Positions 16,965-43,198 of a DNA stretch of 64,000 nt are shown piece after piece. The stretch is from positions 2,400,001-2,464,000 of the forward strand of contig OY761556.1 in assembly GCA_963664705.1 (NCBI GenBank), written 5' to 3'. Each line of letters opens with the position of its first letter. Position 1 is the first letter of the stretch. The position numbers were made by a program, and so were the translations under genes. Origin of the DNA: Acidobacteriota bacterium (GTDB lineage Bacteria > Acidobacteriota > UBA6911). Below the pieces are notes generated by a model. It searched no databases and was not told where the DNA came from. It saw nothing but the letters and a program-made list of their open reading frames with translations.

Positions 16965-17018
16965 GAGAAGCCGAGCGAAGGAAAATTTACGACCCAAAGG
17001 AGATAGGAGGTTCCCATT

Positions 17019-18284: not shown

Positions 18285-18302
18285 TTGGGAGGATAACCAG
18301 TC

Positions 18303-19772: not shown

Positions 19773-19861
19773 CAGTAGTCAGTAGTCAGTAGTCAGTAGT
19801 CAGTGGGCAGTGGATGGAACAAGTGTTCACACTGCCTACTGAATACTGCCTACTGACTACT
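19773..19861. repeat. Heptamer tandem repeat with an inverted copy, forming a hairpin of about 90 nt
   Basis: (CAGTAGT)x4 CAGTGGG CAGTGGA ... ACTGCCT ACTGAAT ACTGCCT ACTGACT ACT, between convergent stop codons. Confidence 0.85.
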
Positions 19862-19870
19862 CGCCAGCCG

Positions 19871-21851: not shown

Positions 21852-22598
21852 ATGCGATTGATGATTAGCGTAGTGTCGGCAGTGGAGGCAGCCAGGGCAC
21901 GCAGCGGCGGAGCTTCGCTTCTGGATGTGAAGAATCCAGAGGAGGGGTCCCTGGGTGCCCAGTGCCCCGAGGTAATCCGCGAGATAAGGAATGTTGCGGG
22001 GGCAGGGGCCGATCTCAGTGTTGCAATTGGCGATATGCCCAACCTTCCTGGAACAGCAGCGCTGGCAGCGCTTGGCGCCGCCGCCTGCGGCGCGGACTAC
22101 ATTAAGGTCGGACTCCATGGCGTGCACAACTATATCGATGCGATCCGCCTTCTGCGCGGAATAAAGGAATCGGTCGTCGGATATAAAACAAAGGTCATTG
22201 CCGCCGCCTATGCGGACTATCGCAATATAGGATCCCTTGATCCGGGCTGCCTTCCGCTCGTTGCTGAGTCTGTGGGGGTCGATGGATACTTGATTGATAC
22301 GGCGGTCAAGGATGGAAGGACGCTGTTGGACTATTATTCAGCGGAGGATCTGGCAATCCTTGCCAACGAGGCGCATGCCCGGGGCCTTCTTTTTGGAGCG
22401 GCGGGAGCGCTTCGGAAAGAGCATCTGCCTCTGTTGCAGGCTGCGGGTGTCGATGTTGCCGGACTTCGCTCAGCAGTATGCAATAACGGCATCCGTACCG
22501 GCACGTTGGATTCCGGTCGCGTCCGCGAACTGATTCAGATGTATGGCGGCTTCTTTGCCGCCAGCTCCACGAATTTGCACAAAGCCGATCTAAGGTGA
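21852..22598 (+). CDS. mfnB: (5-formylfuran-3-yl)methyl phosphate synthase (DUF556, Orf22-like)
   Basis: DVKNPEEGSLGA, DYIKVG and IDTAVKDG motifs. Confidence 0.92.
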   Translation: MRLMISVVSAVEAARARSGGASLLDVKNPEEGSLGAQCPEVIREIRNVAGAGADLSVAIGDMPNLPGTAALAALGAAACGADYIKVGLHGVHNYIDAIRLLRGIKESVVGYKTKVIAAAYADYRNIGSLDPGCLPLVAESVGVDGYLIDTAVKDGRTLLDYYSAEDLAILANEAHARGLLFGAAGALRKEHLPLLQAAGVDVAGLRSAVCNNGIRTGTLDSGRVRELIQMYGGFFAASSTNLHKADLR

Positions 22599-23246
22599 AC
22601 TCGACGCTCGGATGTGCGTTCCCATCGTATGTCCTGTTCTCAGCAATTCCGTGAGACGGCCGGGTTGCATACCATTCACGATCCAGGCTTCAACACTGCT
22701 TTCGCCCAATGCCCGGGACAGGTATTCATCGACTCCTCCGCTATGCTCTTTCAACTGCGCGCACGTCATCTCCGCGATTATCCCGTTGGGATTCAATAGT
22801 CCGTCGACATCCTTGAGAAGGATCAGTCGGGCACAGCCGATGCGTGCGGCGATCCATGCCGCAATGGAATCAGAGGTTACATGCCATGAATGCGGCAGAG
22901 GATCTTCGCGCATCATGATTGTCGCGGGAAGAAGTATCGAGGTTTCGCCGGACATGGCTTTGGTGCAGGCAATGTCAAGATCATGGGTAAGACGGCAGTC
23001 CCTCATCAGATGATGCAGAACATAGCCGTATTGATCCATGGCCAGCAACGCCATGTTGTGAGCAGCCGTCTGCTCCAGATGATATCGGCGATCCGCTTTG
23101 CGCACCTGGTCGGCAAAATCTCCTCCACCGGGTATTACCAGCAGTGAGCGCTCTTTCCCCAATCGGTTTATCTCTTCGCAAAGGGTATTCAGTCCGTTCC
23201 CACGGCTAAGACTGCCCCCGACTTTGAGCACCGCGTCGAGATTCAT
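22590..23246 (-). CDS. mfnE: Amino-acid-kinase-fold furan phosphate kinase (MfnE/Orf21-like)
   Basis: VLKVGGSL, PGGGDFAD, SWHVTSDSIA and KDVDG motifs; start overlaps the upstream stop (ATGA). Confidence 0.82.
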   Translation of the reverse strand: MNLDAVLKVGGSLSRGNGLNTLCEEINRLGKERSLLVIPGGGDFADQVRKADRRYHLEQTAAHNMALLAMDQYGYVLHHLMRDCRLTHDLDIACTKAMSGETSILLPATIMMREDPLPHSWHVTSDSIAAWIAARIGCARLILLKDVDGLLNPNGIIAEMTCAQLKEHSGGVDEYLSRALGESSVEAWIVNGMQPGRLTELLRTGHTMGTHIRASSSP

Positions 23247-24286
23247 GCCAATTCCCTGCTCAGATGACGCGCCAGCAACTGCGCCACAGCAAGGCTGGGC
23301 GCAACCGCCGACTCCTTTTTTCCAAGATTGCCGGGGATTGTACCGATGTCCAATCCTGCCTTTTCGGCCGCCGCTTTGGCTAGAAAAGAACCGGCTCCCA
23401 AAACCACGACTGAATGCCTGCGCAATTGCGGCAGCCGGGCAACTACCTGCTCGATTCCTGTTTGAATCTGCCGCACCTGGCATGCGGCCAGATACCGGGC
23501 TATCCCATCAATCTGAGCGGCCTCAAGCGCCTCCATATCTGCACATACGAGACGCGCAATGCGTCTGCGCGCAGAATCGATCGAAACCGATTCGCTATCA
23601 GGTGTCGGGCAATGATACTCGTCGACTTGCAGATTTCCGAGAATCAGGTGGATATCGCCGCTAATCGCAAAATATTCCGAAGCCACCGGACAAAATCGGG
23701 CTGAAACCGGTACGGCCGGTGCAATCGCCGCCAGATTTGTTCGCAGTGCCCCGGTGTACACCAACTCTCCCGCAAGCAGTCGATCCAAATCCGTGCGTCC
23801 CAGGGCAGCCACACGCCCATCAATGATCGGCATTATGTCGGTGGTTGTGCTGCCGGTGTCGATCACCAGGCCGTCCGACATTTGCCGGGCCACCCATTGT
23901 GCCGTGGCCATCCAGTTCGAAGCAGCAAAATCAAGCGGGCGCAGGCCCGCATCCTCCAGCGAAACAAACTCTCCGGCGAGACTAAAAACAAAGGTCTTCA
24001 CTTCAGGAAATGCTGTCTTGAAGCAGCTTAGAACGTACAGGACACCTTCGCGCTTGGTCAGGAATGCATCGGACAGTTCAGCCGTCATGGTGATGGCGGC
24101 AGTGTGCGGATCTGCGGCGCCGCGAACCGCACCCCAAACCTCCAGCAATACCTTGGGCAAGTCCTGCTTATGGCGCCATATCTCAAATGCTTGCGATGCC
24201 ACAAACGCTTCATCGCCCAAAGCTTTCCCGCAATTCCATCGCGCCGCTTTTATATTGGCCGCCCCGATATCCCAACCAACGATCAT
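23243..24286 (-). CDS. mfnF: MfnF/Orf9-like hydantoinase-family protein (methanofuran core coupling)
   Basis: GWDIGAANIK, TMTAELSD, ASNW, DTGSTTTD, ELVYTG and RIARLVCAD motifs. Confidence 0.88.
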   Translation of the reverse strand: MIVGWDIGAANIKAARWNCGKALGDEAFVASQAFEIWRHKQDLPKVLLEVWGAVRGAADPHTAAITMTAELSDAFLTKREGVLYVLSCFKTAFPEVKTFVFSLAGEFVSLEDAGLRPLDFAASNWMATAQWVARQMSDGLVIDTGSTTTDIMPIIDGRVAALGRTDLDRLLAGELVYTGALRTNLAAIAPAVPVSARFCPVASEYFAISGDIHLILGNLQVDEYHCPTPDSESVSIDSARRRIARLVCADMEALEAAQIDGIARYLAACQVRQIQTGIEQVVARLPQLRRHSVVVLGAGSFLAKAAAEKAGLDIGTIPGNLGKKESAVAPSLAVAQLLARHLSRELA

Positions 24287-25377
24287 CCCTGCACCGCCAA
24301 ATTCCCCATAAGCCGATCGGAAAGCCCCCAGGTCCGAAAGTCATTTTTTAGAATAGTGACCTGTCCGGAAATCGGAATCTGCTCAGGCAGCATTCCGTGT
24401 AGACAAGCCTTAAAAATAGCCTCCGCAAGGTTCACCCGGCTTACCTGCCGCAAGCCGATATAGGAAGTCGTCAGCCTCGGATTGATTTCGATCAACTGTG
24501 CCACACCTTCAGTCAAAACAAGATCCACCCCCACATAGCCTTGCAATCCGGGAATGGATCGTACCGCGGAACAGGCCAATTCCGATACATCCCGGGCCAA
24601 TGGGCTTTGAAACGGAACCCGGCTTCCCATGTATTTTAGTTGTGAACCAGTTTCCATCAGCTGTTCATTGAGGCTTATCGCCATGCAATGATCGCGGGAA
24701 GCCAGAACGGATACACTGACGGAACGTCCGGCGACATAGGGCTGCAGCAGGAATTGATTGTGCGATGTGGACTGCCGAACCTGTCGCAGCGCCTTGTTGA
24801 TTTCGCTCCTGTCCTGAACACAACATACGCCATCGCTCCCCGCACCATCCAGCGGCTTGAGCACCAATGGAAAAGCAGACAGGTTGAAAATATCGGTGCC
24901 ACAATCAAAGGGGAGACATCGAGTTTGTGGAGAAGGAAGCTTCCTGTTCAAAAAAACATCGTGGCACAATGCTTTATTCCCGGTCAGCGCCGCAGCAGAA
25001 CTGCAGGAACCCAGAACCGGTATATCCTTATCTTCAGCCTGCTTTGTAAGTGCAGCCAGGATATTATCCGTCTCCGGTGCAATAATAAGCACGGCGTCAC
25101 ATAGTTCCAGTAATGTACCAAACCCATTGCAGGGGCAGTCCTCCGAAATGGAAATGACCTGATCGGCAGGCAGGGTGGTACGGTTGAGTCCGGGAATTCG
25201 ATCTTCAACGTGGGAATCCAGAGCAGCGATTGTCCGAACTTCTCCCCAGTGTTTGAAATCGGTCAGGAGCGCCCAAATCATGCCGAGCGCTTCGATTGCC
25301 AGATCGGCAGGAATATCCTTGCCGAGGCAACCGCCGCCGGTAAAGAATTCATAGACCAGAACTGTTGAGGAAGACAT
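24283..25377 (-). CDS. mfnD: ATP-grasp ligase, MfnD-like (tyramine/tyrosine-glutamate ligase)
   Basis: VYEFFTGGG, IAPE, KPLDGAGS, GYVGVDL and IEINPRLTTSY motifs; start could be 25377, 25386 or 25395. Confidence 0.78.
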   Translation of the reverse strand: MSSSTVLVYEFFTGGGCLGKDIPADLAIEALGMIWALLTDFKHWGEVRTIAALDSHVEDRIPGLNRTTLPADQVISISEDCPCNGFGTLLELCDAVLIIAPETDNILAALTKQAEDKDIPVLGSCSSAAALTGNKALCHDVFLNRKLPSPQTRCLPFDCGTDIFNLSAFPLVLKPLDGAGSDGVCCVQDRSEINKALRQVRQSTSHNQFLLQPYVAGRSVSVSVLASRDHCMAISLNEQLMETGSQLKYMGSRVPFQSPLARDVSELACSAVRSIPGLQGYVGVDLVLTEGVAQLIEINPRLTTSYIGLRQVSRVNLAEAIFKACLHGMLPEQIPISGQVTILKNDFRTWGLSDRLMGNLAVQG

Positions 25378-26155
25378 GCGAATCATACCCGTCATCGATC
25401 TATTAAACGGTTTTGCGGTTCACGCCATCAAGGGGGACCGAAAAAACTACCGGCCGCTTCACAGCATACTATGCAGCCAACCGGATCCTATCACAATCGC
25501 TCGATCTTTTCGGACCCAGCTCGGACTCAAGGAACTTTACCTGGCTGACCTGGATTGCATTCAGTACCGCGACAGCGCAAAGCATCGCCGGTTGATATCC
25601 AGCCTGGCGACAAACGAGTCCATGGATATTATCCTGGATGCAGGCGTTTCCGAGATTGAGGCCGCCATTGATTGGATAAACGCAGGAATCCACAAGATTG
25701 TCATCGGATCTGAGACGCTGCGGGCACTCAGCGTCATTGCGCAAATTCCGCAAACCCTCGACAAAAATCGCATTGTTTTCAGCCTTGATCTCCAGTCCGG
25801 CGCCATCCTGTCTCAATGCAGTGAATTCGCGGCCCTGTCCCCGATCGAAGCACTGGACCTGCTTCAATCGGCTGGATGGCAAGAGGTCATTCTGTTGGAT
25901 CTCACCCGTGTCGGCAGCGGGATGGGCATCGACCGGAATCTGGTTGCCGAGACACGACGAAGATTTCCGGAAATGAACCTGCTGGTTGGAGGCGGGATTG
26001 CCGGCCCTGAACAGATGTCGGAGCTTTGGGAATCAGGCGTTGCCGGGGTATTGCTGGCGACAGCGCTGCATAACGGAACCATTACAACCCAAAACATTTC
26101 CGCAATGCAGGAGCCGCAAAAAAAGAGGTGCCCCGCTTTCACCGCGGGGCACTGA
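25376..26155 (+). CDS. HisA/HisF-related TIM-barrel protein of H4MPT clusters (Orf17-like)
   Basis: MRIIPVIDL, AVHA..G.R..YRP, LYLADLD, LDLTRVGSGMG and GVLLATALH motifs. Confidence 0.85.
   Translation: MRIIPVIDLLNGFAVHAIKGDRKNYRPLHSILCSQPDPITIARSFRTQLGLKELYLADLDCIQYRDSAKHRRLISSLATNESMDIILDAGVSEIEAAIDWINAGIHKIVIGSETLRALSVIAQIPQTLDKNRIVFSLDLQSGAILSQCSEFAALSPIEALDLLQSAGWQEVILLDLTRVGSGMGIDRNLVAETRRRFPEMNLLVGGGIAGPEQMSELWESGVAGVLLATALHNGTITTQNISAMQEPQKKRCPAFTAGH
26118..26152 (-). terminator. Rho-independent terminator for fae, inside the 3' end of the opposite gene
   Basis: Perfect 9-bp stem GTGCCCCGC/GCGGGGCAC followed on the minus strand by CTC and seven T residues. Confidence 0.7.
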
Positions 26156-29418: not shown

Positions 29419-30381
29419 CTAGCTTTCCAAAAAGGAGGCACGAATCAAATCGGCATTCAGGGATCCTGATCGGAAGAGTCGTCCCGAATTCAGATTATTG
29501 ATTGCCACCTCAGCAGGGCTGAAAAGCAGTTTGTCGATCTGGTAAAAATCGCCTTTATACTGCATGAAGATATCGTAGAACGGCTTCCCGTAATCGCGAG
29601 AGCTGGCCGAAGGTATCTTATCAATCAACTCGGTAAGAAGCGCATCGTCCGTTCGCACGGAATAGGTGACCTGCGCCCCATAGAGGATTGCGTCATTAGT
29701 ACGCCCGATGGCTTTCAGATCATTGGCAGCCACGGGAGCCAGCGGACACAAACCGATGGCATGTATCACGGTGCGCACATCAAATCCCAGTTCAACCAGC
29801 TTGTGCAAGCCGGTTTCTGCCGAACGGGCGGCAACCTGGACAGACCCTGCAATCGAAGCGGTCGGCGCTACCAACAGGATCAGATGCTCAGGATGAACTT
29901 GGCATTTTTCAGCTACATAGGCTGCAACCTCTGCCGTGGGCAACTCCCTTGTCTCAAGCATCAGGACTGCCGTATCACTCTGGTCGCGGTATTCAAGCTT
30001 TCCAAAAAGCTCCTCATCGGCGCAGCGCGCTCGTGCGGGCCCGGAGCCAATGGCAAAATAGCGATCGAGTTTGATGGCCCATCCCGCGTACTGGGACGCC
30101 ATACAGGCAATCGCGGGATAACTTGCGGTAATCGCTACCGCGGGCACATGGAATGCCTCCGCTCCCGTGTAAAAGCCCTGCTGCGTAAAACTGACCTGGC
30201 CCAATCCGCCCAGGCAGGCGCAGGAGAAAAGACGCCCGGCTTCCAGGCTGCCTGGAACATTAACGCCGGCATCGACCACCGTGGCTCTGTTGGACAACCG
30301 GAAAGTATTCAGGCCAAGGGCCTCGCCATCATCTATCATCTGTTGAACGATCACAGCCGCGCGTCTGTTAACACTGATCAT
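29419..30381 (-). CDS. mch: Methenyl-H4MPT cyclohydrolase
   Basis: CMASQYAGW, GSGPAR, GSVQVAARSAE, GRTNDAILYG and LFSPAE motifs. Confidence 0.96.
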   Translation of the reverse strand: MISVNRRAAVIVQQMIDDGEALGLNTFRLSNRATVVDAGVNVPGSLEAGRLFSCACLGGLGQVSFTQQGFYTGAEAFHVPAVAITASYPAIACMASQYAGWAIKLDRYFAIGSGPARARCADEELFGKLEYRDQSDTAVLMLETRELPTAEVAAYVAEKCQVHPEHLILLVAPTASIAGSVQVAARSAETGLHKLVELGFDVRTVIHAIGLCPLAPVAANDLKAIGRTNDAILYGAQVTYSVRTDDALLTELIDKIPSASSRDYGKPFYDIFMQYKGDFYQIDKLLFSPAEVAINNLNSGRLFRSGSLNADLIRASFLES

Positions 30382-31177
30382 AGACGAGTATCTCTCCCTT
30401 CCCGATCCGATTAAAATCACCGCTATATCGATGGAAACACCCCGTTGAAGCATATTTTGGAACCTGGATCCCGTGCTCGCTCAGGTGTTGGAAGATCAAA
30501 CCTAGAAAACTTGGCTGATATCGACAAGCATATCGATAGGTTGGCAGCAATTCCGGTTTTTCAAAGGTCACAATCGTGCCGCGCAACAGTCCGGCGCCGG
30601 CGCGCACTCCCAGCTTCCCGAACACTACAATGGAGCCGGCGATCATAAAAGCTCCTGCGAAATCACCAACGTCTTTCTGGACGGCAATCAGCCCGCGCCG
30701 CATGCAGGCGCCTACCTCATTTCCCGCGCTTCCTTCTACCAGGATTACCCCACGGTTCATTCCGTGGCGGCTGCCTCGATAGGCTCCGCCCAGGCAATGA
30801 CCGGCATCCCCGCGAATATGGATCCTGCCACCAGCCATCTCGGCGCCAGCCCAATCCCCGGCATTGCCGAAAACATGAATCTCACCACCGCGCATACCGG
30901 CCCCCAGATGCATGCCGATATTTCCCTGAACGGTAAGGCGTCCGGAGGTCATTCCCGACCCGACATTCTTTACCCGGCTCAGATCCCCGCGGAGAACAAC
31001 CTCTTCCGTACCCTGTTCGTCAATCTGAAAGAAATCGCCCAAAGAAACACGCTGATTCCCATGCATGGCGGGAAGCTGGGCGATTTCGAATGCGGATTTG
31101 CCACGCAAGACATCCGGCGTAATGGATCCTGCCTCCAGAGGAGCCTCGGGTTGCACGTGCATTGTCAGCATAGTCAT
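30368..31177 (-). CDS. fwdC: Formylmethanofuran dehydrogenase subunit C
   Basis: GltB/FwdC beta-helix glycine repeats (G..MxGG.I.V.G) and C-terminal GKGEI. Confidence 0.93.
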   Translation of the reverse strand: MTMLTMHVQPEAPLEAGSITPDVLRGKSAFEIAQLPAMHGNQRVSLGDFFQIDEQGTEEVVLRGDLSRVKNVGSGMTSGRLTVQGNIGMHLGAGMRGGEIHVFGNAGDWAGAEMAGGRIHIRGDAGHCLGGAYRGSRHGMNRGVILVEGSAGNEVGACMRRGLIAVQKDVGDFAGAFMIAGSIVVFGKLGVRAGAGLLRGTIVTFEKPELLPTYRYACRYQPSFLGLIFQHLSEHGIQVPKYASTGCFHRYSGDFNRIGKGEILVYDQC

Positions 31178-32073
31178 CTGGAAGCGTCTCCATTCAGAAT
31201 TTTGTGTAAATGGAAATGAAACTTGCCCAGATTGCCTCCGTAGTTGCCCGCGGAAATGCGCAGGACACCCGGGATGCACGCAGCCAACACCCCAACGCGG
31301 GTCGCCTCTTCAATCGATTCGACATCCAGCCCGTCAATAACTATTTCAAGCACTGAGTTCACGCCCTCCGGCAATTCTGTCTTCACCAGCCCTCGCAAAC
31401 TGGGGCAGAATGCATCATTCGTGGATGCTCTCAGGAACTTATACCGTGATCCGACTTTGCTTCCACTGCGGACAATACCGCCGGGAAAAGGCAAAATCAC
31501 GTTGCGAATACGCCTCATGGCATCAACCGCCAATTCAGCAGCCTGTAGTGTGGTTTGCGGATCCTTCCCCAGGATAAGAAAATTCCCGCCACCGATTCCC
31601 CGCTGAAGGCCAAATTTTTCCTCAATGAGAAACTCCCCTTCCATTACCGGTATTCTCCAGTAGCAGCGGCCATCGATAACTTTGCTTGCCTGGAACGTAT
31701 CGCCAAAAAAACGCAACTGGCTTCCCACCGCCACGCGCTCCTCGGAGGACAAACCGTTGTAGCAGGCGGTGGTGGCACAGGTCAGTATCGTCTGTCCGAT
31801 GCGATCGATTAGCTGCTTTGAAAGAGTATCCTTGCCGTAGGCAAACATGAGGATGCTGGCACCCGGCCGCCCATCGGGCGTATTATCCATTTCGCATTCA
31901 AGCCCCGCCTCGCACCCACACCCGATAACGGAGGTGGCAAATCCTGTCATCTGGCGTACCGCTTCGATTACCCATTTGCGATTTACGGCTGTAATGATTA
32001 CGCGAGCCGCCCAGGTACCGAAGGCTTCCGCGTATGTGTCCTCTACTTCAACGCCGTTGATCTGGTATGTCAT
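31174..32073 (-). CDS. ftr: Formylmethanofuran:H4MPT formyltransferase
   Basis: EDTYAEAF, TSVIGCGCEAG, TPDGRPG, GGGNF, RSGSKVG and ISAGNYGG motifs. Confidence 0.97.
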   Translation of the reverse strand: MTYQINGVEVEDTYAEAFGTWAARVIITAVNRKWVIEAVRQMTGFATSVIGCGCEAGLECEMDNTPDGRPGASILMFAYGKDTLSKQLIDRIGQTILTCATTACYNGLSSEERVAVGSQLRFFGDTFQASKVIDGRCYWRIPVMEGEFLIEEKFGLQRGIGGGNFLILGKDPQTTLQAAELAVDAMRRIRNVILPFPGGIVRSGSKVGSRYKFLRASTNDAFCPSLRGLVKTELPEGVNSVLEIVIDGLDVESIEEATRVGVLAACIPGVLRISAGNYGGNLGKFHFHLHKILNGDASR

Positions 32074-32110
32074 AGTCGTAGGTTTGCTTCCATTTACATT
32101 CAGCAGCTCT

Positions 32111-33733
32111 TCACTTCACCGCGACTTCTCGCGGCCGCTGGAGATAATGCTCGGCTTGCACAGGATAGTTCTCGAACTCAATGGTGTAGTATTTGCTGAA
32201 AAAATCCCGAATATCGTTTTCCACGGCCACGTCATACGCAGGAGAAACAAAAAGGGTATGACCGTAGGTCTCCTTGCGAATATGGCCATCCTCCACCAGC
32301 ACTTCCCCTTCCTTGATCACATATCTCGGGTTTGCAAACATCTGCTCTTTGTCATCGTGCTTGTCATAGATGGTGATATCCGCATCCGCGCCACAACCGA
32401 GATGCCCCTTGTGCGTCAGACCTAAGATCTTTGCCGGCGCAGCCCGGGTAATGATTGCAATCTCGTATAGCGAATATTCCCGATCATGATCCGGCAGACT
32501 GGTTTTGGCAATTGCCTTCGGGTTGACCGTTTTCAGGACATCTTTCCGGTATTGCCGATCCATCAACAGCCGGATGATCTGCGGATATGCGACGAAGGAC
32601 GCCCCGTTGGGATGATCGGTAGACAAGGCTATTCGCCAGGGATCATTGACAAGGAGGAACCATTCCAGGCCAATGGCCCACTGAGTAGCATGAACATAAT
32701 TCTTATCTTTGTATTCTATCGGAACGATGCCGCATCCTTCCTCACACTCCACATCCACATTGACCCATTTTCGGCCGCCAATCTGATGCAGAAGGTAAGC
32801 GAGGGGGCCGTCGCCGGTCATAGAGGTGGTTTCCCCGAAAAGAACCTGCCCGATATCCACAGTCACATTTGTGTGCGTATTCACGTACTCGGCCAATTCG
32901 GGCACGCGTGAAGTGAATAATCCACCCGGTCGACCGCCATAGCTGTGAAACTGAATATGCGCCAGGTGCCCCGGCCTGCCATCCAGCGCCTTCATGGTTT
33001 CCAGGGTGGCCTGCCAGTTTCCGGCTATTCCAAGGTTATTGCAATGGATGTGCACGGGGTGCGGCAGTCGCAACTCCATACTCGCTTCGGCAAGAGACGA
33101 GATAATCTGGCGCGGCGTAACGCCAAAGCCCGATACTTCGTCGTCCAGCGCATGAACGTTTCCTCTGAATTTCCACAATTCCACGCCGCCCGGGTTCACA
33201 ATCTTGATGGCATACCCTTTTGTTGCCTGCAGCAGCCATGCTACATAGTGCTTCACTTTTTCACGTTCACCGGCGGCGATCTGCTTCATGATGAATTCGT
33301 TATTCCCCATCAAAACAAAAAAGCCTTTGTCGATGACAGGAGTATCCAGAAATTCCTCATGCGCATGTCGCGCCGCCATTGGAGGAACGGCGGCATCAAA
33401 AGCAGTGGTATATCCCATTGCCGCATAACGGTAGCCTGTAGTAAATGTCGATGGAATCGATTTCCCCACGCCGGATCTGGTAATCGCGGTTTTGGACACC
33501 GGGTCCCGCCTGTGATCCTCCGGGCGCATTTTGCGGGCTGTATTGACCTTTGGCCCGGCAATGTGGCAATGCATATCCACACCACCTGGCATAATCACCA
33601 TTCCGGCGGCATCAATTGTCTTTCCTTCCTTGACGGTATCGACGATCCGCCCTTCGCTGACGCAGATCTCTCTCACCTCGCCGTTGATGCCGTTGATCGG
33701 ATCGTATACTTCACCATTGATGATCTTCAGCAT
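32111..33733 (-). CDS. fwdA: Formylmethanofuran dehydrogenase subunit A (amidohydrolase)
   Basis: DMHCH, KIVNPGG, HIHCNNLG, HIQF and STDHPNG metal-site motifs are intact. Confidence 0.96.
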   Translation of the reverse strand: MLKIINGEVYDPINGINGEVREICVSEGRIVDTVKEGKTIDAAGMVIMPGGVDMHCHIAGPKVNTARKMRPEDHRRDPVSKTAITRSGVGKSIPSTFTTGYRYAAMGYTTAFDAAVPPMAARHAHEEFLDTPVIDKGFFVLMGNNEFIMKQIAAGEREKVKHYVAWLLQATKGYAIKIVNPGGVELWKFRGNVHALDDEVSGFGVTPRQIISSLAEASMELRLPHPVHIHCNNLGIAGNWQATLETMKALDGRPGHLAHIQFHSYGGRPGGLFTSRVPELAEYVNTHTNVTVDIGQVLFGETTSMTGDGPLAYLLHQIGGRKWVNVDVECEEGCGIVPIEYKDKNYVHATQWAIGLEWFLLVNDPWRIALSTDHPNGASFVAYPQIIRLLMDRQYRKDVLKTVNPKAIAKTSLPDHDREYSLYEIAIITRAAPAKILGLTHKGHLGCGADADITIYDKHDDKEQMFANPRYVIKEGEVLVEDGHIRKETYGHTLFVSPAYDVAVENDIRDFFSKYYTIEFENYPVQAEHYLQRPREVAVK

Positions 33734-35016
33734 GCTTTCAGCTCCTTCACTCGCGTCAACAACCGGCTGAGCAATTCCTGATCAGACGGATACGGAGAGG
33801 GCAGGACTTTCCGCAGCAGAATCGGGATGTTATCCATGCGATATACCGTTCCCTCCACATGAATTCCCGCTGTACATGTCGTGAACGCAACATGCGCGAT
33901 TTTCGTGGTTTCACTTTCATGCGTGTCCACCGCGATTGTGGGAATGGAAGCCAGGTGGCGAACCGCTCTTGCGGGCAGCGTTGCCGCCGGATCGGCGGCC
34001 ACCACGATGGCCGCATCGGCCTCCTTTCGACTGCATACATCGACAACCGTATACTCTCCCGGATTGAAACGAGGGTAGCCCAGGCTGAAGTTGACACCGA
34101 AAGGATACCCCGTCTGCCACGCGACGACATTATCCACGCCGGTTACATTGCCGTGGCCTCTCATAGGAATAATGGCAAATTTTGTATGCTGATGAAGCGC
34201 GCGCACCAGCAGAAAAGCGGCGGTAGTATTGAAGTGCTTGCCCCGCGTTTGCGTCAAGCCCTGACCGGCAAAGAGCACGCCAAATTTGCAGTGCATCATC
34301 TTTTCCGCCAGAGCATTCAGCTGATCGATCGTCAGGCCGGTTTCTTCGACGGACGCTTCATCCACCTTTTGGCCCTTCACAAGAGCCTGGAGAGCCCAAA
34401 GCACCTCAAAATCCTTGCCGGGCTTTATCTGAATAAACATATCCACGGCGGCAGCGCTCGCGGTACGGCGTACATCCACAAGCACGACGGTGCGATCTTT
34501 TCGTCCTCGAGGAATAAACATGCCTTTGGGCATTACAGCATAACGCACCATGTGGCGCGGATGCGATTCCCCCGGATTCGATCCCCAATAAATGATCAGG
34601 TCAGCCCGGTTCTTGACCTCACCCAGGGTACAAGTGGGCTCGCCGACGCCCTGCAGCGCCATGCCTGAAGGGCCATGACATACGGAGGTGCAACAATCCA
34701 GGCACCCGCCCAAAAGCTCAGCCAGCGCCACGGCCGAACGCTGTGCTTCACAGGAAGTGCTGCTCAACCCGTAAACGAGCGGATATCGCGATGCAGCCAG
34801 GCAGCGAGCCGCTTCATGAATCCCTTCTTCCAGGCTGACGGCCTGCCCCTGGATCCGGGCCAACGGGAGGTTCGATGGTTGGCCATGGTTCAGAAACCAT
34901 GCTTTCCCAAGAACACAGGCATTCTTAACCTGGGTAACACGATCCTCTTCAACCGTCACCCGGATATCGTCACAATCACACCCGCAAAATGCGCACACTG
35001 CGTGATCCACTTGCAT
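33727..35016 (-). CDS. fwdB: Formylmethanofuran dehydrogenase subunit B (Mo/W-pterin catalytic subunit)
   Basis: CAFCGCDC...C 4Fe-4S motif, SVCHGP metal ligand (Cys113), GEVKNRAD, HPRH and MRGHGNV motifs. Confidence 0.94.
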   Translation of the reverse strand: MQVDHAVCAFCGCDCDDIRVTVEEDRVTQVKNACVLGKAWFLNHGQPSNLPLARIQGQAVSLEEGIHEAARCLAASRYPLVYGLSSTSCEAQRSAVALAELLGGCLDCCTSVCHGPSGMALQGVGEPTCTLGEVKNRADLIIYWGSNPGESHPRHMVRYAVMPKGMFIPRGRKDRTVVLVDVRRTASAAAVDMFIQIKPGKDFEVLWALQALVKGQKVDEASVEETGLTIDQLNALAEKMMHCKFGVLFAGQGLTQTRGKHFNTTAAFLLVRALHQHTKFAIIPMRGHGNVTGVDNVVAWQTGYPFGVNFSLGYPRFNPGEYTVVDVCSRKEADAAIVVAADPAATLPARAVRHLASIPTIAVDTHESETTKIAHVAFTTCTAGIHVEGTVYRMDNIPILLRKVLPSPYPSDQELLSRLLTRVKELKAC

Positions 35017-35025
35017 ACGCCAATC

Positions 35026-35409
35026 CTATGACTCCATTATCCCGGACCCGGGCTTCTGTTCCTGATTTTTGGGAACAGCTCTTGTAATCTCGATCTCCAC
35101 GTGTTTTGAATCGGGCATTCCTGACGCGTAGGTTTCACCGCCAACCAATCGGTTGCACGCCGGACCGAATGCAATGAACGCCATCCCCGGGGGTATATCG
35201 GCAGCACGGCATATGACTTCCGCCGATCCATACTCCGTGGTTATCCGAACGGCATCTCCCTCAGCCAATCCTGACCTCTCCAGATCAACAGTATTCACAT
35301 CCAGGATGCGGGTAGCCTCTTGATAATCCAGGTATTCCTTACCGCTCGAAATTCCAGCACCCTGCTTGGTGGACCTGCCGGTAACCAACATCAGCTTAAG
35401 CGTTGCCAT
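35026..35409 (-). CDS. fwdD: Formylmethanofuran dehydrogenase subunit D (molybdopterin-dinucleotide-binding domain)
   Basis: TGRSTKQG, G.AFI.FGP..N and GMPDSK motifs; directly upstream of fwdB. Confidence 0.85.
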   Translation of the reverse strand: MATLKLMLVTGRSTKQGAGISSGKEYLDYQEATRILDVNTVDLERSGLAEGDAVRITTEYGSAEVICRAADIPPGMAFIAFGPACNRLVGGETYASGMPDSKHVEIEITRAVPKNQEQKPGSGIMES

Positions 35410-36589
35410 AAATCCGATCTCTCAACAATCGAGCCTGTCGAACCAACTCGCCATACGTTTCCGCCCGCGTTGCCCCTTGCGCAAGCAGGGTACAAACCGG
35501 ACTGCCTTTCCGCAATAACTGATCCGGGGCCGGAATATCCCTGAGCTGGCAGCCCGGCATATTCAAGACTCCCGGGCAGACGGAATCTTTTTCGCAAAAC
35601 AGAATGCTTTTACCGAAAAAACGGTCGGAACTCAATCGCGATTCCAGTCGAAATTCCGGCAATCTTCGATCGACAACCGCCTCCATATGACAACCAAAAA
35701 TCGACAAGCCATATGCCCGTTCGATCAATTCCATAGAAGCGGAATATCGGGGATTCACCTCGATAAGATATACTTCATCACGATTCAGGATAAAATCAAA
35801 ACCATTGATGCCTATTAATCCATATTCACGGACAAGGAATTCGCATAACCGCCTAACCCGGCTAACCACGGGCAGGCCGGGTTCAAGAGCCTCCGGCAAA
35901 GGCAGGATATTTCCGCAATAGCGATAGCCCTGTGTCCCAAAGTGGCAGTCCCCGATCAATTGCTCCGTGATTCCAAGGAGTACGGTTTCCGATCCGTTGG
36001 CAACAAATGTTGCCGAACAGGCTTTTCCTGCAATGAATTCCTGCACCAGCGTTTCTTTTTCAGGCGTCTGTCCATGAAGGAGGAAGATGCCATGCCCCCC
36101 TCCACTCTTAACCGGTTTACTGAGCCACTGACGTCCCTCATCCAATCCGCGACTATTCTGGCGGGAAAGGGTCTCCGGAACGGAAAAGCCACCCGCCCGC
36201 AGGCGAGCAAATAAAACCGGCCAATCACGGATGGCGGCAACGCTGGCAGGAGAGTTGCCAGCCAGCGGATGGGTCGATTCAAACCTTTGAAGTATTTCAG
36301 GATGGTTCTCGAGATTGGAGGTATAGGCAACGGAGTGAAAATCAAGTTGTCGACTCGCCTCAAACAGCGCACGGGCGCTATAGGGGACATTAAAATCCCG
36401 CGGGAGGGAATAGCAACCGGCAAGTGCTCGCAAATCCTCATCCCCAAAAGCATCCAATGCAACGACCGGGTAGCGGCTTTGGACCGCCGACTCGACAAAG
36501 GCGCGCACACTGATGCCAATGACCAAAATTCTGCATTCTTGCGAAGACGTCATTTCACTCCCTGATTTTCTCCGCAGGTCTTCAGACAT
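35396..36589 (-). CDS. ATP-grasp protein (OrfY/MyfB-like)
   Basis: SVRAFVESA, DAFGDEDL, KP..SGGG.GI, YCGNI and IEVNPRYSAS motifs. Confidence 0.82.
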   Translation of the reverse strand: MSEDLRRKSGSEMTSSQECRILVIGISVRAFVESAVQSRYPVVALDAFGDEDLRALAGCYSLPRDFNVPYSARALFEASRQLDFHSVAYTSNLENHPEILQRFESTHPLAGNSPASVAAIRDWPVLFARLRAGGFSVPETLSRQNSRGLDEGRQWLSKPVKSGGGHGIFLLHGQTPEKETLVQEFIAGKACSATFVANGSETVLLGITEQLIGDCHFGTQGYRYCGNILPLPEALEPGLPVVSRVRRLCEFLVREYGLIGINGFDFILNRDEVYLIEVNPRYSASMELIERAYGLSIFGCHMEAVVDRRLPEFRLESRLSSDRFFGKSILFCEKDSVCPGVLNMPGCQLRDIPAPDQLLRKGSPVCTLLAQGATRAETYGELVRQARLLRDRIYGNA

Positions 36590-36793: not shown

Positions 36794-37651
36794 ATGAAGA
36801 AGATACTTATCCAACTCGACAGTGACCGTGTGCCCAGCGTATTTGACGCCGTAACGGCTTACGATGCGGGAGCGGATCGATTGCTTCAACATGGTGGAAT
36901 CGTTCCCACTGAAGTGCGCGACCTCGTTTACGGAGCCATGTTCACGCGCGGACCTTCGGATTTGAAAAACACCGCTGTATTCATCGGGGGAATCAGCGTT
37001 GCAAAAGGAGAGGCCATTCTCAAGGAAACCCTGGCAGCATTCTTCAACCCCTTGAGAGTCTCGGTAATGCTTGACTCCAACGGCTGCAACACAACGGCCA
37101 CGGCCGCGGTGGTCAAAGTCATTTCCGCAGTCCCGGTCCGCGGACAAAAAGTGGTTGTGCTGGCGGGAACCGGACCCGTAGGCCAAAGGGTTGCCGCCCT
37201 CCTCGCCAAAGAGGGAGCCGAAGTCACACTCACATCACGCACTTTTGAGCGAGCCAAAACCGCTTGCGATGCTTTGAAAGAGCGATTTGGGTCGAATGCA
37301 ATTCCGGCAGCCGCGGCCGACTTCGCGGCCACAGCAGCGGTACTTGAAGATGCATGCGCCGCCATCTGCACCGGAGTGGAAGGGGTCATGCTCATTCCGG
37401 AAGATGTCTGGAAAAAGCACCCGACGCTGCAGGTCCTGGCAGACGTCAATGCAGTCCCTCCCCTTGGAATCGAGGGAACGCAATCTCATTGGGACGGTCA
37501 GCAGGTCAATGACAAGCGGATATTCGGTGCCATTGGAATCGGCGGCCTCAAAATGAAAGTCCACAAGAGATGTATTGCACGGCTTTTTGAGCGCAATGAC
37601 CTGGTATTGGACGCAGAGGAGATAATGGTCATCGCCAAGGAATTGGCCTGA
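36794..37651 (+). CDS. mtd: NAD(P)-dependent methylene-H4MPT dehydrogenase (MtdA/MtdC-like)
   Basis: PSVFD, FTRG, MLDSNGCNTTA, AGTGPVG, DVNAVPPLGI and IGGLKMKVH motifs. Confidence 0.93.
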   Translation: MKKILIQLDSDRVPSVFDAVTAYDAGADRLLQHGGIVPTEVRDLVYGAMFTRGPSDLKNTAVFIGGISVAKGEAILKETLAAFFNPLRVSVMLDSNGCNTTATAAVVKVISAVPVRGQKVVVLAGTGPVGQRVAALLAKEGAEVTLTSRTFERAKTACDALKERFGSNAIPAAAADFAATAAVLEDACAAICTGVEGVMLIPEDVWKKHPTLQVLADVNAVPPLGIEGTQSHWDGQQVNDKRIFGAIGIGGLKMKVHKRCIARLFERNDLVLDAEEIMVIAKELA

Positions 37652-37673: not shown

Positions 37674-38696
37674 TCAAAGGAGGAGGGTGCTGCGGGACAC
37701 GAAGGCTTCGGATTTTTGAATCTTCACCTGAGCGCCCCTGTTTCGGGGCTGTACGCAGAGAACCTGTCCTTCGCCGCAGGTTTGGAGAAAGTCCTTCACC
37801 TGCTGAGTCAGTTTTCGTGCGGACGCTCGCCCCTGGACCAGGCCATAAACAGCGGGTCCCCAGGAACTCTGCCCTGCTCCGACCGCTCCGTTCGCCAGCA
37901 GAAAGTCGATTATCTTTTCGGATAGAGGATTCGAATATCGCCCCCCCTGAACGGCGGCAAAACAATCTCCTATCATCTGCTGTATGATCGTCATCGCCTT
38001 TCCGAAACCATCGATATCTTTTTCAACAAGCGCGGGCAGCATTTTCATCAGAAGCAGATGACTGACTTTTCCCACCAGATCCGGGTTTGCCTCCGGCAAA
38101 TGCGAAAAAGCGCTGCATTCCCTTTCACCGCTGATACCTTGCCCGGTGCCCGGAATACATACAATGAAAAACCAGTCTTTCGGCACCGCACGGTGAAACA
38201 GGATAGGAGGGACATGCTTTCCTGCCTGCCGGGTTGCCCTCGCGGAATCAACGGGCTCGGGGATTCGGTGCCCACCATCCAGAACGAAACCGCCATGTTG
38301 GAAGGTTGCAATCCCTATGCCCGATCTCATGCCCCTTCCGGCATCCAGTGCAATCTCCTCGACGCTCAACGGCAAACCCGCCAGATGAGCCAGTGCCGTC
38401 CCAACCGCAAGCGCTATCTGGGTCCCCGAACCCAGGCCGACGTGCGCGGGGATTCCCGAGATCAGTTGAAGGCGCGCTCCGGCAGGAATCCCATATTTTT
38501 CCACGAAGCGGACGGCGTAAGTTTTTACGCGGTCCGATTCCGCACCCTCGATTATCAGGTCATCCGCCGATTCGGCCTTTAGCCGCAGCTGCGGATGATC
38601 CACCGCCACACCAATGCTGCCATACAGCCGGCCACACTCCCCATTGTGATCCAGCAAACCCAGATGAAGGCGCGCACAGGTTCTGACCTCAATCAT
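37674..38696 (-). CDS. mptG: Beta-ribofuranosylaminobenzene 5'-phosphate synthase
   Basis: RLHLGLLD, HVGLGSGTQ, GRGMRSGIG, GGFVLDGG and GQSSWGP motifs. Confidence 0.93.
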   Translation of the reverse strand: MIEVRTCARLHLGLLDHNGECGRLYGSIGVAVDHPQLRLKAESADDLIIEGAESDRVKTYAVRFVEKYGIPAGARLQLISGIPAHVGLGSGTQIALAVGTALAHLAGLPLSVEEIALDAGRGMRSGIGIATFQHGGFVLDGGHRIPEPVDSARATRQAGKHVPPILFHRAVPKDWFFIVCIPGTGQGISGERECSAFSHLPEANPDLVGKVSHLLLMKMLPALVEKDIDGFGKAMTIIQQMIGDCFAAVQGGRYSNPLSEKIIDFLLANGAVGAGQSSWGPAVYGLVQGRASARKLTQQVKDFLQTCGEGQVLCVQPRNRGAQVKIQKSEAFVSRSTLLL

Positions 38697-39244
38697 TACG
38701 CTCCCTTTCGAACAAAGTCTTGTACCATCTGTAAGGCTTGTTTATCGATCGCATCCCCGGTTTTTTCTACGATCTCCCCATACTGCATCAGCTTTTCTTC
38801 CACCCAAAGCGGTTCGTAGAACATCCGTCGCGTGGCCACGATGGTCGCTTCCAGCACGGCATTGCTGCCGCGACGAAACCCAAGGAATTCCTTCTGCCGG
38901 CCCTCGTAGAGCACCCTGCATTGGATATTGGCTCGCACATCGTCCCCTGAATCGGAAATCACCTCCATTTCCCGCCAGGAACAAGTTTCGCTGAACACGA
39001 CACACGGGCTCGCCTTCCCCGGGAAATGAGGAAGCACTGCATCATATAGCGCACTCCGGACATACGCCAGAATATCATCGCTTATGTTTGCTACTCCATA
39101 CCTGGTAGAGAGAAGGTTCCGACAGGTATGGCTGTCACGGAATGGCCTCACGACGACAATGTTCCGGTCCCACACCACTCCCATAGGTGCGAAGTTGGGT
39201 TTCCCGCTCTCATCCAGAGTGGAGAAAATCGTCTCAACAATCAT
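38696..39244 (-). CDS. DUF447 family protein (Orf19-like)
   Basis: MIVETIFST, NFAPMG and AVLEATIVATR motifs; translationally coupled to mptG. Confidence 0.85.
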   Translation of the reverse strand: MIVETIFSTLDESGKPNFAPMGVVWDRNIVVVRPFRDSHTCRNLLSTRYGVANISDDILAYVRSALYDAVLPHFPGKASPCVVFSETCSWREMEVISDSGDDVRANIQCRVLYEGRQKEFLGFRRGSNAVLEATIVATRRMFYEPLWVEEKLMQYGEIVEKTGDAIDKQALQMVQDFVRKGA

Positions 39245-41813: not shown

Positions 41814-41848
41814 CGTCTCCTCCATTACTCAACGGAAAACATGGAATT

Positions 41849-43198
41849 CTAGTCCGCCTTCGGTGTTCTCCGCGTTTTCAAATCTTTCGACAGATAACCC
41901 CAGCGCAGTTCCTCTTCCTGCGCATATGTCTTTCCCAGTTTTATGGCAATCGATGCTTTCTGGAGTTCCCTGCCCAGGTAAAAGGCATGGGCTCCATCCA
42001 CCTCTCCCAACTCTCTGAAAATGGAGTCAATCTCAATCCCTTTTACAAACAGCTCTCGATTGAAAACATAAATGAACTCGCGATCAGTGAATATACGAAA
42101 GTGGCGGTCCTTGATGTTCGACTGCATTGAACGCAGTTCATCCTCTCGAAAGCTCTCAAAAGACGGATCCTTAACCGTAAGTAATCCATCGTTCAAGTGC
42201 TTGGGCAGAACGCGGTTCATTTGAGCATAGTGCATCAGACGCCGGGCATGATCCAGCTCACACACTGCTCCGCGCGCCCAATGCCCGACTTCCGTCGTCA
42301 GCACATAATCAATACCCAGTTCTGCAACGATACCCGCGATCAGAGCATTCATTCCGGTTGTGTCGGCATCCGTCAATTCGGTGATATTCCCGGCACCCAG
42401 GAGCATTTCGGATTTCGGATATTTCCGCCGGATGGAAGCAAAGCTTTCAATGGATTCGGTAAAACCGAAACAAACCGGCTTCAAAATCGGGTCAATGATG
42501 TATGGAACGCGCCAGGATTCCAGCTTTGCGATATTGGCCGACAGCGATTCCAGCTCGCTCGCTTCGTCCGGAATAACAACCACCTTGCAGTGCAGATGGC
42601 GCGCGACATCAATATTCCTCGAGTTAACGCTCAAAACAAAATCCACGCCGGCGCGATCGGCACTCAGGATATCGTCCGGATTGAAGGAATCGATGCTGAC
42701 AGCATAGCCTGCCTGCTTCAAAGCCCGCACCGTTATCTCGATTTCGGGGAAAGAGCCGCTGACCGGGCATCCCAGGTCGATAATGTCCGCGCCGCTCGCC
42801 CGGTAATAGCTCGCGCGATTTAGAATCTCCTCCAGGGTCATGCGATGCGCATCCACAATTTCAGCCAGGATCTTCGCATGATATTCGCCGTAGCCCTCCA
42901 GTCTTTGGGAGGCGCCAAAATAGCCTGGGATATCCTTCAGGCTTTTGGGGCCCCGGATGACCTCCGCACCGGTCTTCTGCTCAACCAGAGCCAGATCCCC
43001 CTCGCAGGAACCGGGAATCATGATCCTGTCGCATCCGTTGCTTCCGCTTATATGTTTTGAGATGAAACGGGTATCCATGAGCGCGGCCACCGAAATCGGC
43101 ATGACAGACACATCGTATTCAAGGGCTTGTATCCCCTGCAAACAGTCGCGCAAAGACTGTTCTGCCAGTTTTCCCGTTATAAACAGGTACCGAGGCAT
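41849..43198 (-). CDS. Dihydropteroate-synthase-related protein of H4MPT clusters (Orf20-like)
   Basis: FITGKLA, ISVAALM, AEIVDA, GADIIDLG, GNITELTDAD, HAFYLG.EL and YAQEEEL.WG motifs. Confidence 0.88.
   Translation of the reverse strand: MPRYLFITGKLAEQSLRDCLQGIQALEYDVSVMPISVAALMDTRFISKHISGSNGCDRIMIPGSCEGDLALVEQKTGAEVIRGPKSLKDIPGYFGASQRLEGYGEYHAKILAEIVDAHRMTLEEILNRASYYRASGADIIDLGCPVSGSFPEIEITVRALKQAGYAVSIDSFNPDDILSADRAGVDFVLSVNSRNIDVARHLHCKVVVIPDEASELESLSANIAKLESWRVPYIIDPILKPVCFGFTESIESFASIRRKYPKSEMLLGAGNITELTDADTTGMNALIAGIVAELGIDYVLTTEVGHWARGAVCELDHARRLMHYAQMNRVLPKHLNDGLLTVKDPSFESFREDELRSMQSNIKDRHFRIFTDREFIYVFNRELFVKGIEIDSIFRELGEVDGAHAFYLGRELQKASIAIKLGKTYAQEEELRWGYLSKDLKTRRTPKAD

What the first reader, a model, noticed from the sequence alone, without database searches (positions are those of the whole stretch)
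30368..35409. Hybrid formyl-MFR complex: bacterial fhcB-A-D-C gene order with a redox-intact FwdB and an FwdD
Seen: the order is fwdD-fwdB-fwdA-ftr-fwdC-mch. FwdB keeps the N-terminal CxxCxxxC...C 4Fe-4S motif, the SVCHGP Cys/His site (Cys113, codon 34678-34680) and the MRGH arginine, and a separate FwdD is present. Known: FhcB of aerobic methylotrophs has lost the pterin and Fe-S sites and has no FwdD, so Fhc only hydrolyses formyl-MFR to formate, whereas archaeal Fwd/Fmd interconverts it with CO2. Inference: this is a true W/Mo formylmethanofuran dehydrogenase that may bind Ftr physically, an evolutionary intermediate between Fwd and Fhc.
Basis: partly seen in the sequence, partly recalled or inferred. 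Interest (0 to 1): 0.8.

Follow-up and report, generated by a model that had tools for sequence, protein, structure and literature searches.

The report
Bacterial formyl dehydrogenase with docked formyltransferase
This bacterium encodes a methanogen-style metal enzyme that keeps the catalytic residues needed to turn a carrier-bound formyl group into CO2 and carries the docking helix that is predicted to hold its partner transferase, so it likely preserves the ancestral form of a methylotroph enzyme; the gene arrangement is common in bacteria and already published.

Summary
Observation confirmed. Intact fwdD-fwdB-fwdA-ftr-fwdC-mch sits in a near-complete H4MPT/methylofuran island of a probable Acidobacteriota genome. 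FwdB keeps C8/C11/C15/C34, Cys113-His114, Arg286 and His288; the genome has moaA, moaC, moeA, mobA-like and tupAB-like genes. It is not unusual: the order occurs in 29 of 45 bacterial loci fetched, it is published for an actinobacterial genome (PMC7325909), and this scan noted the type in 7 earlier findings on other genomes. It is not a chimera: A, B and C all group with bacteria, and proteobacterial FhcA nests among redox-type bacterial FwdA. Added here: subunit C has the FhcC-type C-terminal helix-loop-helix (33 of 33 bacterial redox rows, 0 of 56 archaeal rows), and a predicted C-Ftr complex docks on it (0.68 against 0.00; possibly recalled from the solved Fhc). Best reading: a W/Mo enzyme with bound Ftr that oxidises formaldehyde-derived formyl groups to CO2. 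No dedicated ferredoxin is encoded nearby, and activity is untested. The Fe-S motif is not diagnostic, since 8 of 8 full-length FhcB rows also keep it.

The parts
35026..35409 (-). fwdD, pterin-capping fourth domain (127 aa)
   Evidence: PF01568; 5T5I_D E 4e-16; NF042908 75 bits, below its cut-off of 175
33727..35016 (-). fwdB, W/Mo-bisPGD formate-oxidising subunit with C8/C11/C15/C34, C113-H114, R286, H288
   Evidence: (TIGR03129 521 bits); fold Z 39-40 to FwdB against 25.7 to FhcB
32111..33733 (-). fwdA, binuclear formyl-MFR amidohydrolase (H55, H57, K177, H230, H259, D373 by alignment)
   Evidence: TIGR03121 779 bits; alignments to 5T5I_A and 8RJA_A
31174..32073 (-). ftr/fhcD formyltransferase
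   Evidence: TIGR03119 428 bits
30368..31177 (-). fwdC/fhcC beta-helix with an FhcC-type C-terminal helix-loop-helix (helices 223-234 and 241-244), the predicted Ftr dock
29419..30381 (-). mch, methenyl-H4MPT cyclohydrolase
   Evidence: TIGR03120 410 bits
28546..29412 (-). orf5/myfB-like RimK glutamate ligase (polyglutamylates methylofuran in M. extorquens)
   Evidence: TIGR00768; 41% to the mch-adjacent RimK gene of an Azospirillum Fhc island; function from PMC8141765
27645..28583 (-). CitG-like gene (orf7; label recalled)
   Evidence: PF01874
26186..26698 (-). fae, formaldehyde-activating enzyme; a terminator-like hairpin follows at 26152-26128
   Evidence: TIGR03126 255 bits; (14 such sites found against 11.8 expected, so weak)
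25376..26155 (+). orf17, HisA/HisF-related methylofuran biosynthesis gene
   Evidence: TIGR00734 below cut-off; role
21852..25395 (.). furan-carrier biosynthesis genes mfnB (+, 21852-22598), mfnE (-), mfnF (-), mfnD (-)
35396..36589 (-). ATP-grasp gene, orfY/myfA-like
   Evidence: PF02655; 25% identity, E 2e-23, to the ATP-grasp between mtd and mch in an Azospirillum island
36794..37651 (+). methylene-H4MPT dehydrogenase, closer to MtdA than to MtdB
   Evidence: 271 bits to M. extorquens MtdA; 32% to an Azospirillum MtdB-type protein
37674..39244 (-). mptG (RFAP synthase) and DUF447
41849..43198 (-). dihydropteroate-synthase-like H4MPT biosynthesis gene
   Evidence: TIGR00284 below cut-off

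Best explanation
The operon encodes a bacterial formylmethanofuran dehydrogenase whose B and D subunits keep the W/Mo-pterin catalytic residues and whose C subunit carries the FhcC-type helix, so it likely forms a single FwdABCD-Ftr complex that would oxidise formyl-H4MPT to CO2. Proposed flow: (1) Fae joins formaldehyde to H4MPT; Mtd and Mch oxidise it to formyl-H4MPT (genes shown, reactions from established knowledge). (2) Ftr, docked on the C-terminal helix of subunit C (helix shown by alignment and model; docking predicted), passes the formyl group to a polyglutamylated furan carrier (myfB, orf17 and myfA-like genes shown; tethering inferred). (3) The binuclear site of A hydrolyses it to formate (ligands shown). 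(4) Formate moves internally to the W/Mo-bisPGD site of B/D and is oxidised to CO2 (residues shown; activity inferred from archaeal Fwd). (5) Electrons leave through the [4Fe-4S] cluster of B to an unlinked acceptor, most likely a general small ferredoxin (inferred). Evolutionarily it is the retained ancestral bacterial state from which redox-dead Fhc likely arose by loss.
For: Catalytic residues: C113 in 42 of 42, H114 in 41 of 42 and R286 in 42 of 42 bacterial redox-type FwdB rows, against 0 of 8 Fhc rows. Related bacterial FwdBs carry an in-frame TGA at that Cys, the UHxP selenocysteine motif known for FwdB. Cofactor supply: moaA (35), moaC (20), four moeA including a MoeA-PBP fusion beside an AOR gene, mobA-like, tupA/tupB-like below cut-off, and 12 PF00384 matches in the genome. 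Ftr dock: C aligns to FhcC over 15-265 but to M. wolfeii FwdC only over 3-216. The P212-G253 segment is 40-41 residues in 33 of 33 bacterial redox rows, 40-58 in 9 of 9 Fhc rows and 20-30 in 56 of 56 archaeal rows. The model has helices 223-234 and 241-244 and aligns 265 of 265 residues of 6S6Y_C (74). The Fhc structure paper names this element as the FhcD binding site. Predicted C-Ftr complex: score 0.68, best control 0.00; the mark was reached by 116 of 157 solved and 2 of 215 mismatched pairs; runs agree in at least 93% of contacts; partner pLDDT at least 90; interface on C residues 218-231. Direction: Fae present; AcsB, CODH and Mer not found in this 98% complete genome. Trees: proteobacterial FhcA nests within redox-type bacteria; a clade of redox types without Fhc is rejected at p-AU 0.013.
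Against: No ORF with a CxxCxxCxxxC motif lies in the island or in 0 of 45 bacterial loci, so no FwdF/G-type electron outlet is linked. The genome has two separate formate dehydrogenases and FTHFS (96, 24), so released formate could be used. The complex pass may be recalled from 6S6Y. The helix is also kept in five fwdD-B-C modules with no neighbouring fwdA or ftr. Only 3 of 9 Fhc-specific basic columns of C, 5 of 11 of A and 1 of 3 of B are basic here. A close Acidobacteriota relative (L038) has His114Gln, His288Arg and no fwdD found, so the redox site can decay in this lineage. No formaldehyde source was found: no PQQ methanol dehydrogenase and no MttB (87). In the FwdB tree the place of Fhc is unresolved and carries a long-branch warning. 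The AU groups were named after seeing the tree.
Confidence: 0.55

Rival explanations
1. Redox-active FwdABCD, but Ftr works as a free enzyme with a diffusing carrier, as in archaea; the helix serves another purpose.
For: The helix is retained in fwdD-B-C modules with no adjacent ftr. Some Chloroflexota loci separate ftr-C from D-B-A (L024, L028). The basic methylofuran patch is only partial. The complex score may reflect likeness to 6S6Y.
Against: The predicted interface lies on the bacteria-specific helix. ftr and fwdC overlap by ATGA. ftr precedes C in 29 of 45 bacterial loci, and ftr is in 0 of 35 archaeal loci fetched.
Confidence: 0.18
2. It works like Fhc: formate is released and handled by separate formate dehydrogenases or FTHFS; B and D are structural or only recently idle.
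For: No linked ferredoxin. An NAD-linked FDH, a TGA-containing FdhF beside hydrogenase-type genes, and FTHFS are present. Relative L038 shows decay of the site.
Against: The catalytic residues are near-invariant over sequences 47-81% identical. FwdD is retained in 42 of 45 bacterial loci. Selenocysteine-type forms exist. FwdB branches are short next to FhcB branches.
Confidence: 0.12
3. The complex runs reductively in vivo, fixing CO2 onto the furan carrier as an electron sink or C1 source, bridged to folate by the MtdA-like enzyme.
For: Fwd is reversible, and its direction is suggested to lie in the electron partner (PMC11493965). The genome has Hdr/Mvh-type flavoproteins and a metF cluster. 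The Mtd is MtdA-like.
Against: AcsB, CODH and Mer were not found. Fae sits in the same gene run. There is no polyferredoxin relay.
Confidence: 0.1
4. A true chimera: archaeal fwdB/fwdD recently grafted onto a bacterial Fhc operon.
For: FwdB is 47-49% identical to archaeal FwdB but only 25-29% to proteobacterial FhcB.
Against: In the FwdB tree all bacterial rows, Fhc included, form one side of a 99-supported branch. The A and C trees agree. The identity gap reflects long FhcB branches. GC content is even across the window.
Confidence: 0.03

Closest known systems
Tungsten formylmethanofuran dehydrogenase FwdABCD(FG) of Methanothermobacter wolfeii (PDB 5T5I) and FwdABCDGI of Ca. Ethanoperedens thermophilum (8RJA)
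   Same: Separate FwdD; FwdB with the Fe-S cysteines, Cys-His and Arg; binuclear FwdA; fold Z 39-40. 8RJA is a CO2-releasing enzyme.
   Different: No linked FwdF/G/I; ftr inside the operon; subunit C with a helix-loop-helix instead of the beta-hairpin; methylofuran-type glutamate ligases in the island.
Formyltransferase/hydrolase complex FhcABCD of Methylorubrum extorquens (PDB 6S6Y)
   Same: B-A-D(ftr)-C order; FhcC-type C-terminus; part of the basic carrier-binding patch; fae, mtd, mch, orf5 and orf17 neighbours.
   Different: FhcB lacks Cys118, His119, Arg288, the Fe-S domain and FwdD; all are present here.
Bacterial fwdDBA-ftr-fwdC operon of Hakuba actinobacterial SAG S47 (Merino et al. 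2020, PMC7325909); bacterial fwdD homologues (Chistoserdova 2016, PMC5020050)
   Same: Identical gene order; FwdB with the [4Fe-4S] domain and Cys118; no fwdFG; proposed to be active. fwdD noted in Synergistetes, Firmicutes and NC10.
   Different: That genome lacked H4MPT biosynthesis genes and the authors said its FwdB lacked tungstopterin motifs; here the cofactor island is present. The passages seen did not discuss the C-terminal helix or Ftr docking.

Membership tests
Archaeal Fwd/Fmd | FwdB with [4Fe-4S] cysteines, Cys/Sec-His metal site and Arg | tested here: met
Archaeal Fwd/Fmd | Separate FwdD capping domain | tested here: met
Archaeal Fwd/Fmd | FwdA binuclear metal site | tested here: met
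   alignments; K177 and H230 invariant
Archaeal Fwd/Fmd | Molybdopterin/bisPGD biosynthesis in the genome | tested here: met
   mobA-like below its cut-off (22, 96); MoaD/MoaE not searched
Archaeal Fwd/Fmd | Dedicated Fe-S relay subunits (FwdG/F or I) | tested here: inconclusive
   none in the island or in 45 bacterial loci; 13 small two-motif ferredoxins elsewhere in the genome
Archaeal Fwd/Fmd | FwdC with short beta-hairpin tail; ftr outside the fwd cluster | tested here: not met
Archaeal Fwd/Fmd | Bound W/Mo-bisPGD and formyl-MFR:acceptor oxidoreductase activity | not testable with these tools
   needs purified enzyme
Fhc (M. extorquens type) | Gene order B-A-D(ftr)-C | tested here: met
   compare
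Fhc (M. extorquens type) | FhcC C-terminal helix-loop-helix | tested here: met
Fhc (M. extorquens type) | Ftr physically bound to subunit C | tested here: inconclusive
   prediction passes, 0.68 against 0.00, but a like complex is solved
Fhc (M. extorquens type) | Basic patch that anchors polyglutamylated methylofuran | tested here: inconclusive
   3 of 9 (C), 5 of 11 (A) and 1 of 3 (B) Fhc-specific basic columns; residue numbers of Fig. S13 were not in the text held
Fhc (M. extorquens type) | Degenerate B without the metal ligand, and no FwdD | tested here: not met
Bacterial fwdDBA-ftr-fwdC type (Merino 2020) | Order fwdD-B-A-ftr-C, with Fe-S domain and catalytic Cys, without fwdFG | tested here: met

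The most novel reading that the evidence does not exclude
The ancestral bacterial enzyme is a three-active-site channelling machine (Ftr, Zn hydrolase, W-pterin dehydrogenase) with a tethered furan carrier that takes formyl-H4MPT to CO2 without releasing intermediates. Ftr docking came before loss of the redox site, which orders two of the three steps proposed for the Fwd-to-Fhc transition. The redox site was then lost repeatedly (Proteobacteria, other lineages, and incipiently in a close Acidobacteriota relative), leaving an unknown electron acceptor to be found.
Probability: 0.4. Interest if true: 0.65.

Novelty: new member of a known kind. Interest (0 to 1): 0.45.

Why it matters
If active, many facultative and anaerobic bacteria oxidise H4MPT-bound C1 straight to CO2 and capture low-potential electrons, rather than releasing formate as model methylotrophs do. 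That would bear on the role of H4MPT genes in non-methylotrophs, called enigmatic in PMC5020050 and unclear for the UBA6911 genus. It also gives a testable order for the Fwd-to-Fhc transition, and a compact bacterial CO2/formyl-interconverting complex. I found no biochemical study of a bacterial enzyme of this type in 8 literature searches, but the gene-level observation is not new.

Tried and rejected
Recent archaeal graft: rejected. Fe-S motif as a diagnostic: rejected. Missing molybdopterin biosynthesis: rejected. Search for a linked electron partner: none among the unmatched neighbour ORFs or motif scans; the scan misses 2Fe-2S proteins and genes beyond the fetched flanks. Formaldehyde source: no PQQ dehydrogenase over cut-off (88) and no MttB (87); other demethylases and Afp/DmrA reductase were not searched. 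Expression: no RNA holder listed (94). The FwdB model is poor in the cofactor loops (pLDDT under 50 at 110-129 and 289-305), so the pterin pocket could not be judged from it. The careful FwdA tree did not finish; the quick mixture-model tree is reported (77). The promoter scan was below chance (124). Adam et al. 2019 (Nat Microbiol), the most relevant phylogeny, was not held and may already cover the evolutionary points. bioRxiv supplements were not seen; they may list fwd genes for the UBA6911 family. Scan look-ups for the docking helix and for nearby notes returned nothing.
Full report
Observation. The six genes are intact on the minus strand in the order fwdD-fwdB-fwdA-ftr-fwdC-mch, with overlapping or closely spaced stops and starts. 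Family assignments pass curated cut-offs for B, A, Ftr, C and Mch; FwdD matches its NCBIfam model below cut-off, but matches Pfam PF01568 and the solved FwdD of 5T5I. Codon 34678-34680 is TGT (Cys113); the four N-terminal cysteines and MRGH are present. The likely fwdC start is 31177, and mch lies outside the quoted interval.

Context. The operon is the centre of a C1 island spanning about 21.9-43.2 kb: mfnB/E/F/D, orf17, fae, citG-like, a RimK ligase, an ATP-grasp gene, mtd, mptG, DUF447 and a DHPS-like gene. The RimK and ATP-grasp genes match the myfB and myfA positions of an Azospirillum Fhc island (41% and 25% identity). These genes build the polyglutamate tail of methylofuran in methylotrophs (PMC8141765, passages). 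The closest named relatives of FwdB (75-81%) are mostly Acidobacteriota MAGs, one labelled UBA6911, so the host likely belongs to that group (inference). A preprint on that family reports H4MPT-linked formaldehyde oxidation without upstream C1 genes and calls its value unclear (10.1101/2021.04.09.439258, passages).

How common. Of the 80 loci kept, 45 are bacterial and 35 archaeal. 42 of 45 have D-B-A, and 29 of 45 have D-B-A-ftr-C with at most about one gene between A and ftr; several others end at a contig edge. 0 of 35 archaeal loci have ftr. The bacterial loci are labelled Acidobacteriota, Chloroflexota, Thermodesulfobacteriota, Desulfatiglans, Thermoleophilia and Planctomycetota. 18 of 24 other genomes of the genus have an FwdB match below 1e-100, against 0 of 16 further genomes of the class; 10 of 301 genomes of the phylum match at 1e-25. 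These sets were chosen by similarity to the query and include close kin, so counts are not independent. In print: the same order with Fe-S domain and Cys118, without fwdFG, in an actinobacterial SAG (PMC7325909, passages); bacterial fwdD in three phyla (PMC5020050, parts 1-2 of 3); 149 bacterial FwdB-family hits, some lacking the Cys (PMC10100899, passages). An earlier paper had stated that bacterial FwdB was absent (PMC7331816, passages). The scan's own notes list 7 similar findings on other genomes (unchecked).

Redox site. FwdB scores 405-413 bits to archaeal FwdB and 58 to FhcB. Its model gives Z 39-40 (rmsd 3.3-3.5, 390-393 aligned) to FwdB and 25.7 (3.8, 314) to FhcB, though the cofactor loops are low-confidence. 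In an alignment of rows of 400 aa or more, C113/H114/R286/H288 occur in 42/41/42/41 of 42 bacterial redox rows and 57 of 57 archaeal rows. C113, H114 and R286 occur in 0 of 8 Fhc rows, while all 8 keep the four Fe-S cysteines. So the metal ligand, the Arg and FwdD are diagnostic, and the Fe-S motif is not. Related bacterial FwdBs have TGA at the Cys position: five fwdD-B-C modules and two loci with fwdA and ftr, matching the UHxP motif tabulated for FwdB (PMC13188914, passages). The genome has moaA, moaC, four moeA, a mobA-like gene, tupA/B-like genes and 12 PF00384 matches. Tungsten is plausible; the metal is undetermined.

Ftr docking. The Fhc structure paper attributes FhcD binding mainly to a helix-loop-helix at FhcC 216-246 that replaces the FwdC hairpin (PMC6926001, parts 2-3 of 7, passages and supplement text). 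The window's C aligns with FhcC over 15-265, but with M. wolfeii FwdC only over 3-216. The segment is 40-41 residues in 33 of 33 bacterial redox rows, 40-58 in 9 of 9 Fhc rows and 20-30 in 56 of 56 archaeal rows. The model (mean pLDDT 95) has helices at 223-234 and 241-244. Z scores to FwdC and FhcC are tied (34-36), but 265 of 265 FhcC residues align, against 244-255 for FwdC. The predicted C-Ftr complex scores 0.68, best of 3 controls 0.00; 116 of 157 solved and 2 of 215 mismatched pairs reached the mark; runs share at least 93% of contacts; partner pLDDT is at least 90; contacts centre on C 218-231. Because 6S6Y is solved, this shows likeness rather than binding. Against: the helix also persists in modules with no neighbouring ftr, and the basic carrier patch is partial (3 of 9 Fhc-specific basic columns in C, 5 of 11 in A, 1 of 3 in B).

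Evolution. I built trees on subsets: 51 of 137 FwdA rows, 46 of 125 FwdB rows and 44 of 114 FwdC rows, dropping near-duplicates by hand. Each separates all bacterial rows from all archaeal rows (SH-aLRT 99-100). In FwdA, under both LG+G4 and the mixture model (quick searches), nine proteobacterial FhcA rows nest inside redox-type bacteria. On 31 rows, a clade of redox types without Fhc is rejected at p-AU 0.013, and the window's group joined with archaea at 6e-5; both groups were named after seeing the tree. In the B and C trees the place of Fhc is unresolved, with a long-branch warning for B. Archaea came mainly from Halobacteriota and Asgard, and NC10, Firmicutes and Synergistota were not sampled. 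The operon is therefore a conserved bacterial form, not a graft. With an archaeal root, Ftr docking features predate loss of the redox site (inference).

Direction and gaps. AcsB, CODH and Mer were not found in the genome (98% complete). Fae, FTHFS, two formate dehydrogenases, Hdr-type proteins and heme-copper oxidases are present. Oxidation of formaldehyde to CO2 is thus most likely; archaeal work suggests direction depends on the electron partner (PMC11493965, passages). No ferredoxin-motif ORF lies in the island or in 45 bacterial loci (25 of 82 archaeal loci have one), and the genome has 13 small two-motif ferredoxins but no ORF with more than four motifs. The acceptor and the formaldehyde source stay open. 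PMC11264602 (passages) added nothing.

Verdict. Real, probably redox-active, and probably Ftr-bound; a new member of a kind already described from genomes and uncharacterised biochemically in the 8 searches made. Only the Fhc paper held FhcC, FwdC and formyltransferase together. Adam et al. 2019 could not be read. Interest 0.45.

Noticed in passing
L038:8001-9290 (genome G041): An Acidobacteriota FwdB 68% identical to the window's has SVCQGP and MRDRG, no fwdD in the locus, and none found in its assembly: apparently an independent, early decay towards Fhc.
   Followed up: partly
L091-L095 (G005, G006, G012, G024): fwdD-fwdB(TGA at the metal ligand)-fwdC modules with no fwdA or ftr nearby and no H4MPT genes in the fetched stretch; C keeps the helix. 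Possibly a stand-alone selenium formate dehydrogenase module.
   Followed up: partly
L203, L204 (G291, G320): Other Acidobacteriota carry TGA-type fwdB in fwdD-B-A-C clusters with ftr nearby: candidate bacterial selenoprotein FwdB.
   Followed up: partly
L201, L202 (G552, G483): Acidobacteriota genomes with degenerate FhcB; L202 has B-A-ftr-C-mch with no fwdD hit, so both types exist in one phylum.
   Followed up: partly
L163-L169: Stand-alone fwdA genes with no B, C or ftr within about 5 kb, in 7 genomes of G042's phylum; the four placed on the tree form one clade.
   Followed up: no
L189:2914-11178 (G000 C1 ~42.9-51.2 kb): hdrC-hdrB-hdrA(large)-mvhD-metV-like-metF cluster in a genome where AcsB and CODH were not found; the metV and hdrC labels rest on position and recall.
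   Followed up: partly
window 15501-21757: Two FAD-linked oxidase genes, a CCG Fe-S gene and an aldehyde:ferredoxin oxidoreductase flank the island; the AOR is not conserved beside related clusters.
   Followed up: no
window 39318-41216 (-) and 43332-44372 (-): A 632-aa protein with a signal-peptide-like start and a 346-aa protein, neither with a Pfam or NCBIfam hit; the latter has relatives in two related clusters (L017, L041).
   Followed up: no
window 26808-27635 (-) and 41289-41825 (-): Fpg-like glycosylase and YfiT/DinB genes inserted in the C1 island.
   Followed up: no
L014:2751-3842, L016:1532-3079 and similar: DUF1464 (15 loci) and DUF2193 (13 loci) recur in related clusters, mostly Chloroflexota; both are candidates for missing cofactor steps.
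   Followed up: no
G000 C1:1625651, 3078215, 6559014: ARAGORN calls three tRNA-SeC genes, one only 72 nt long.
   Followed up: no
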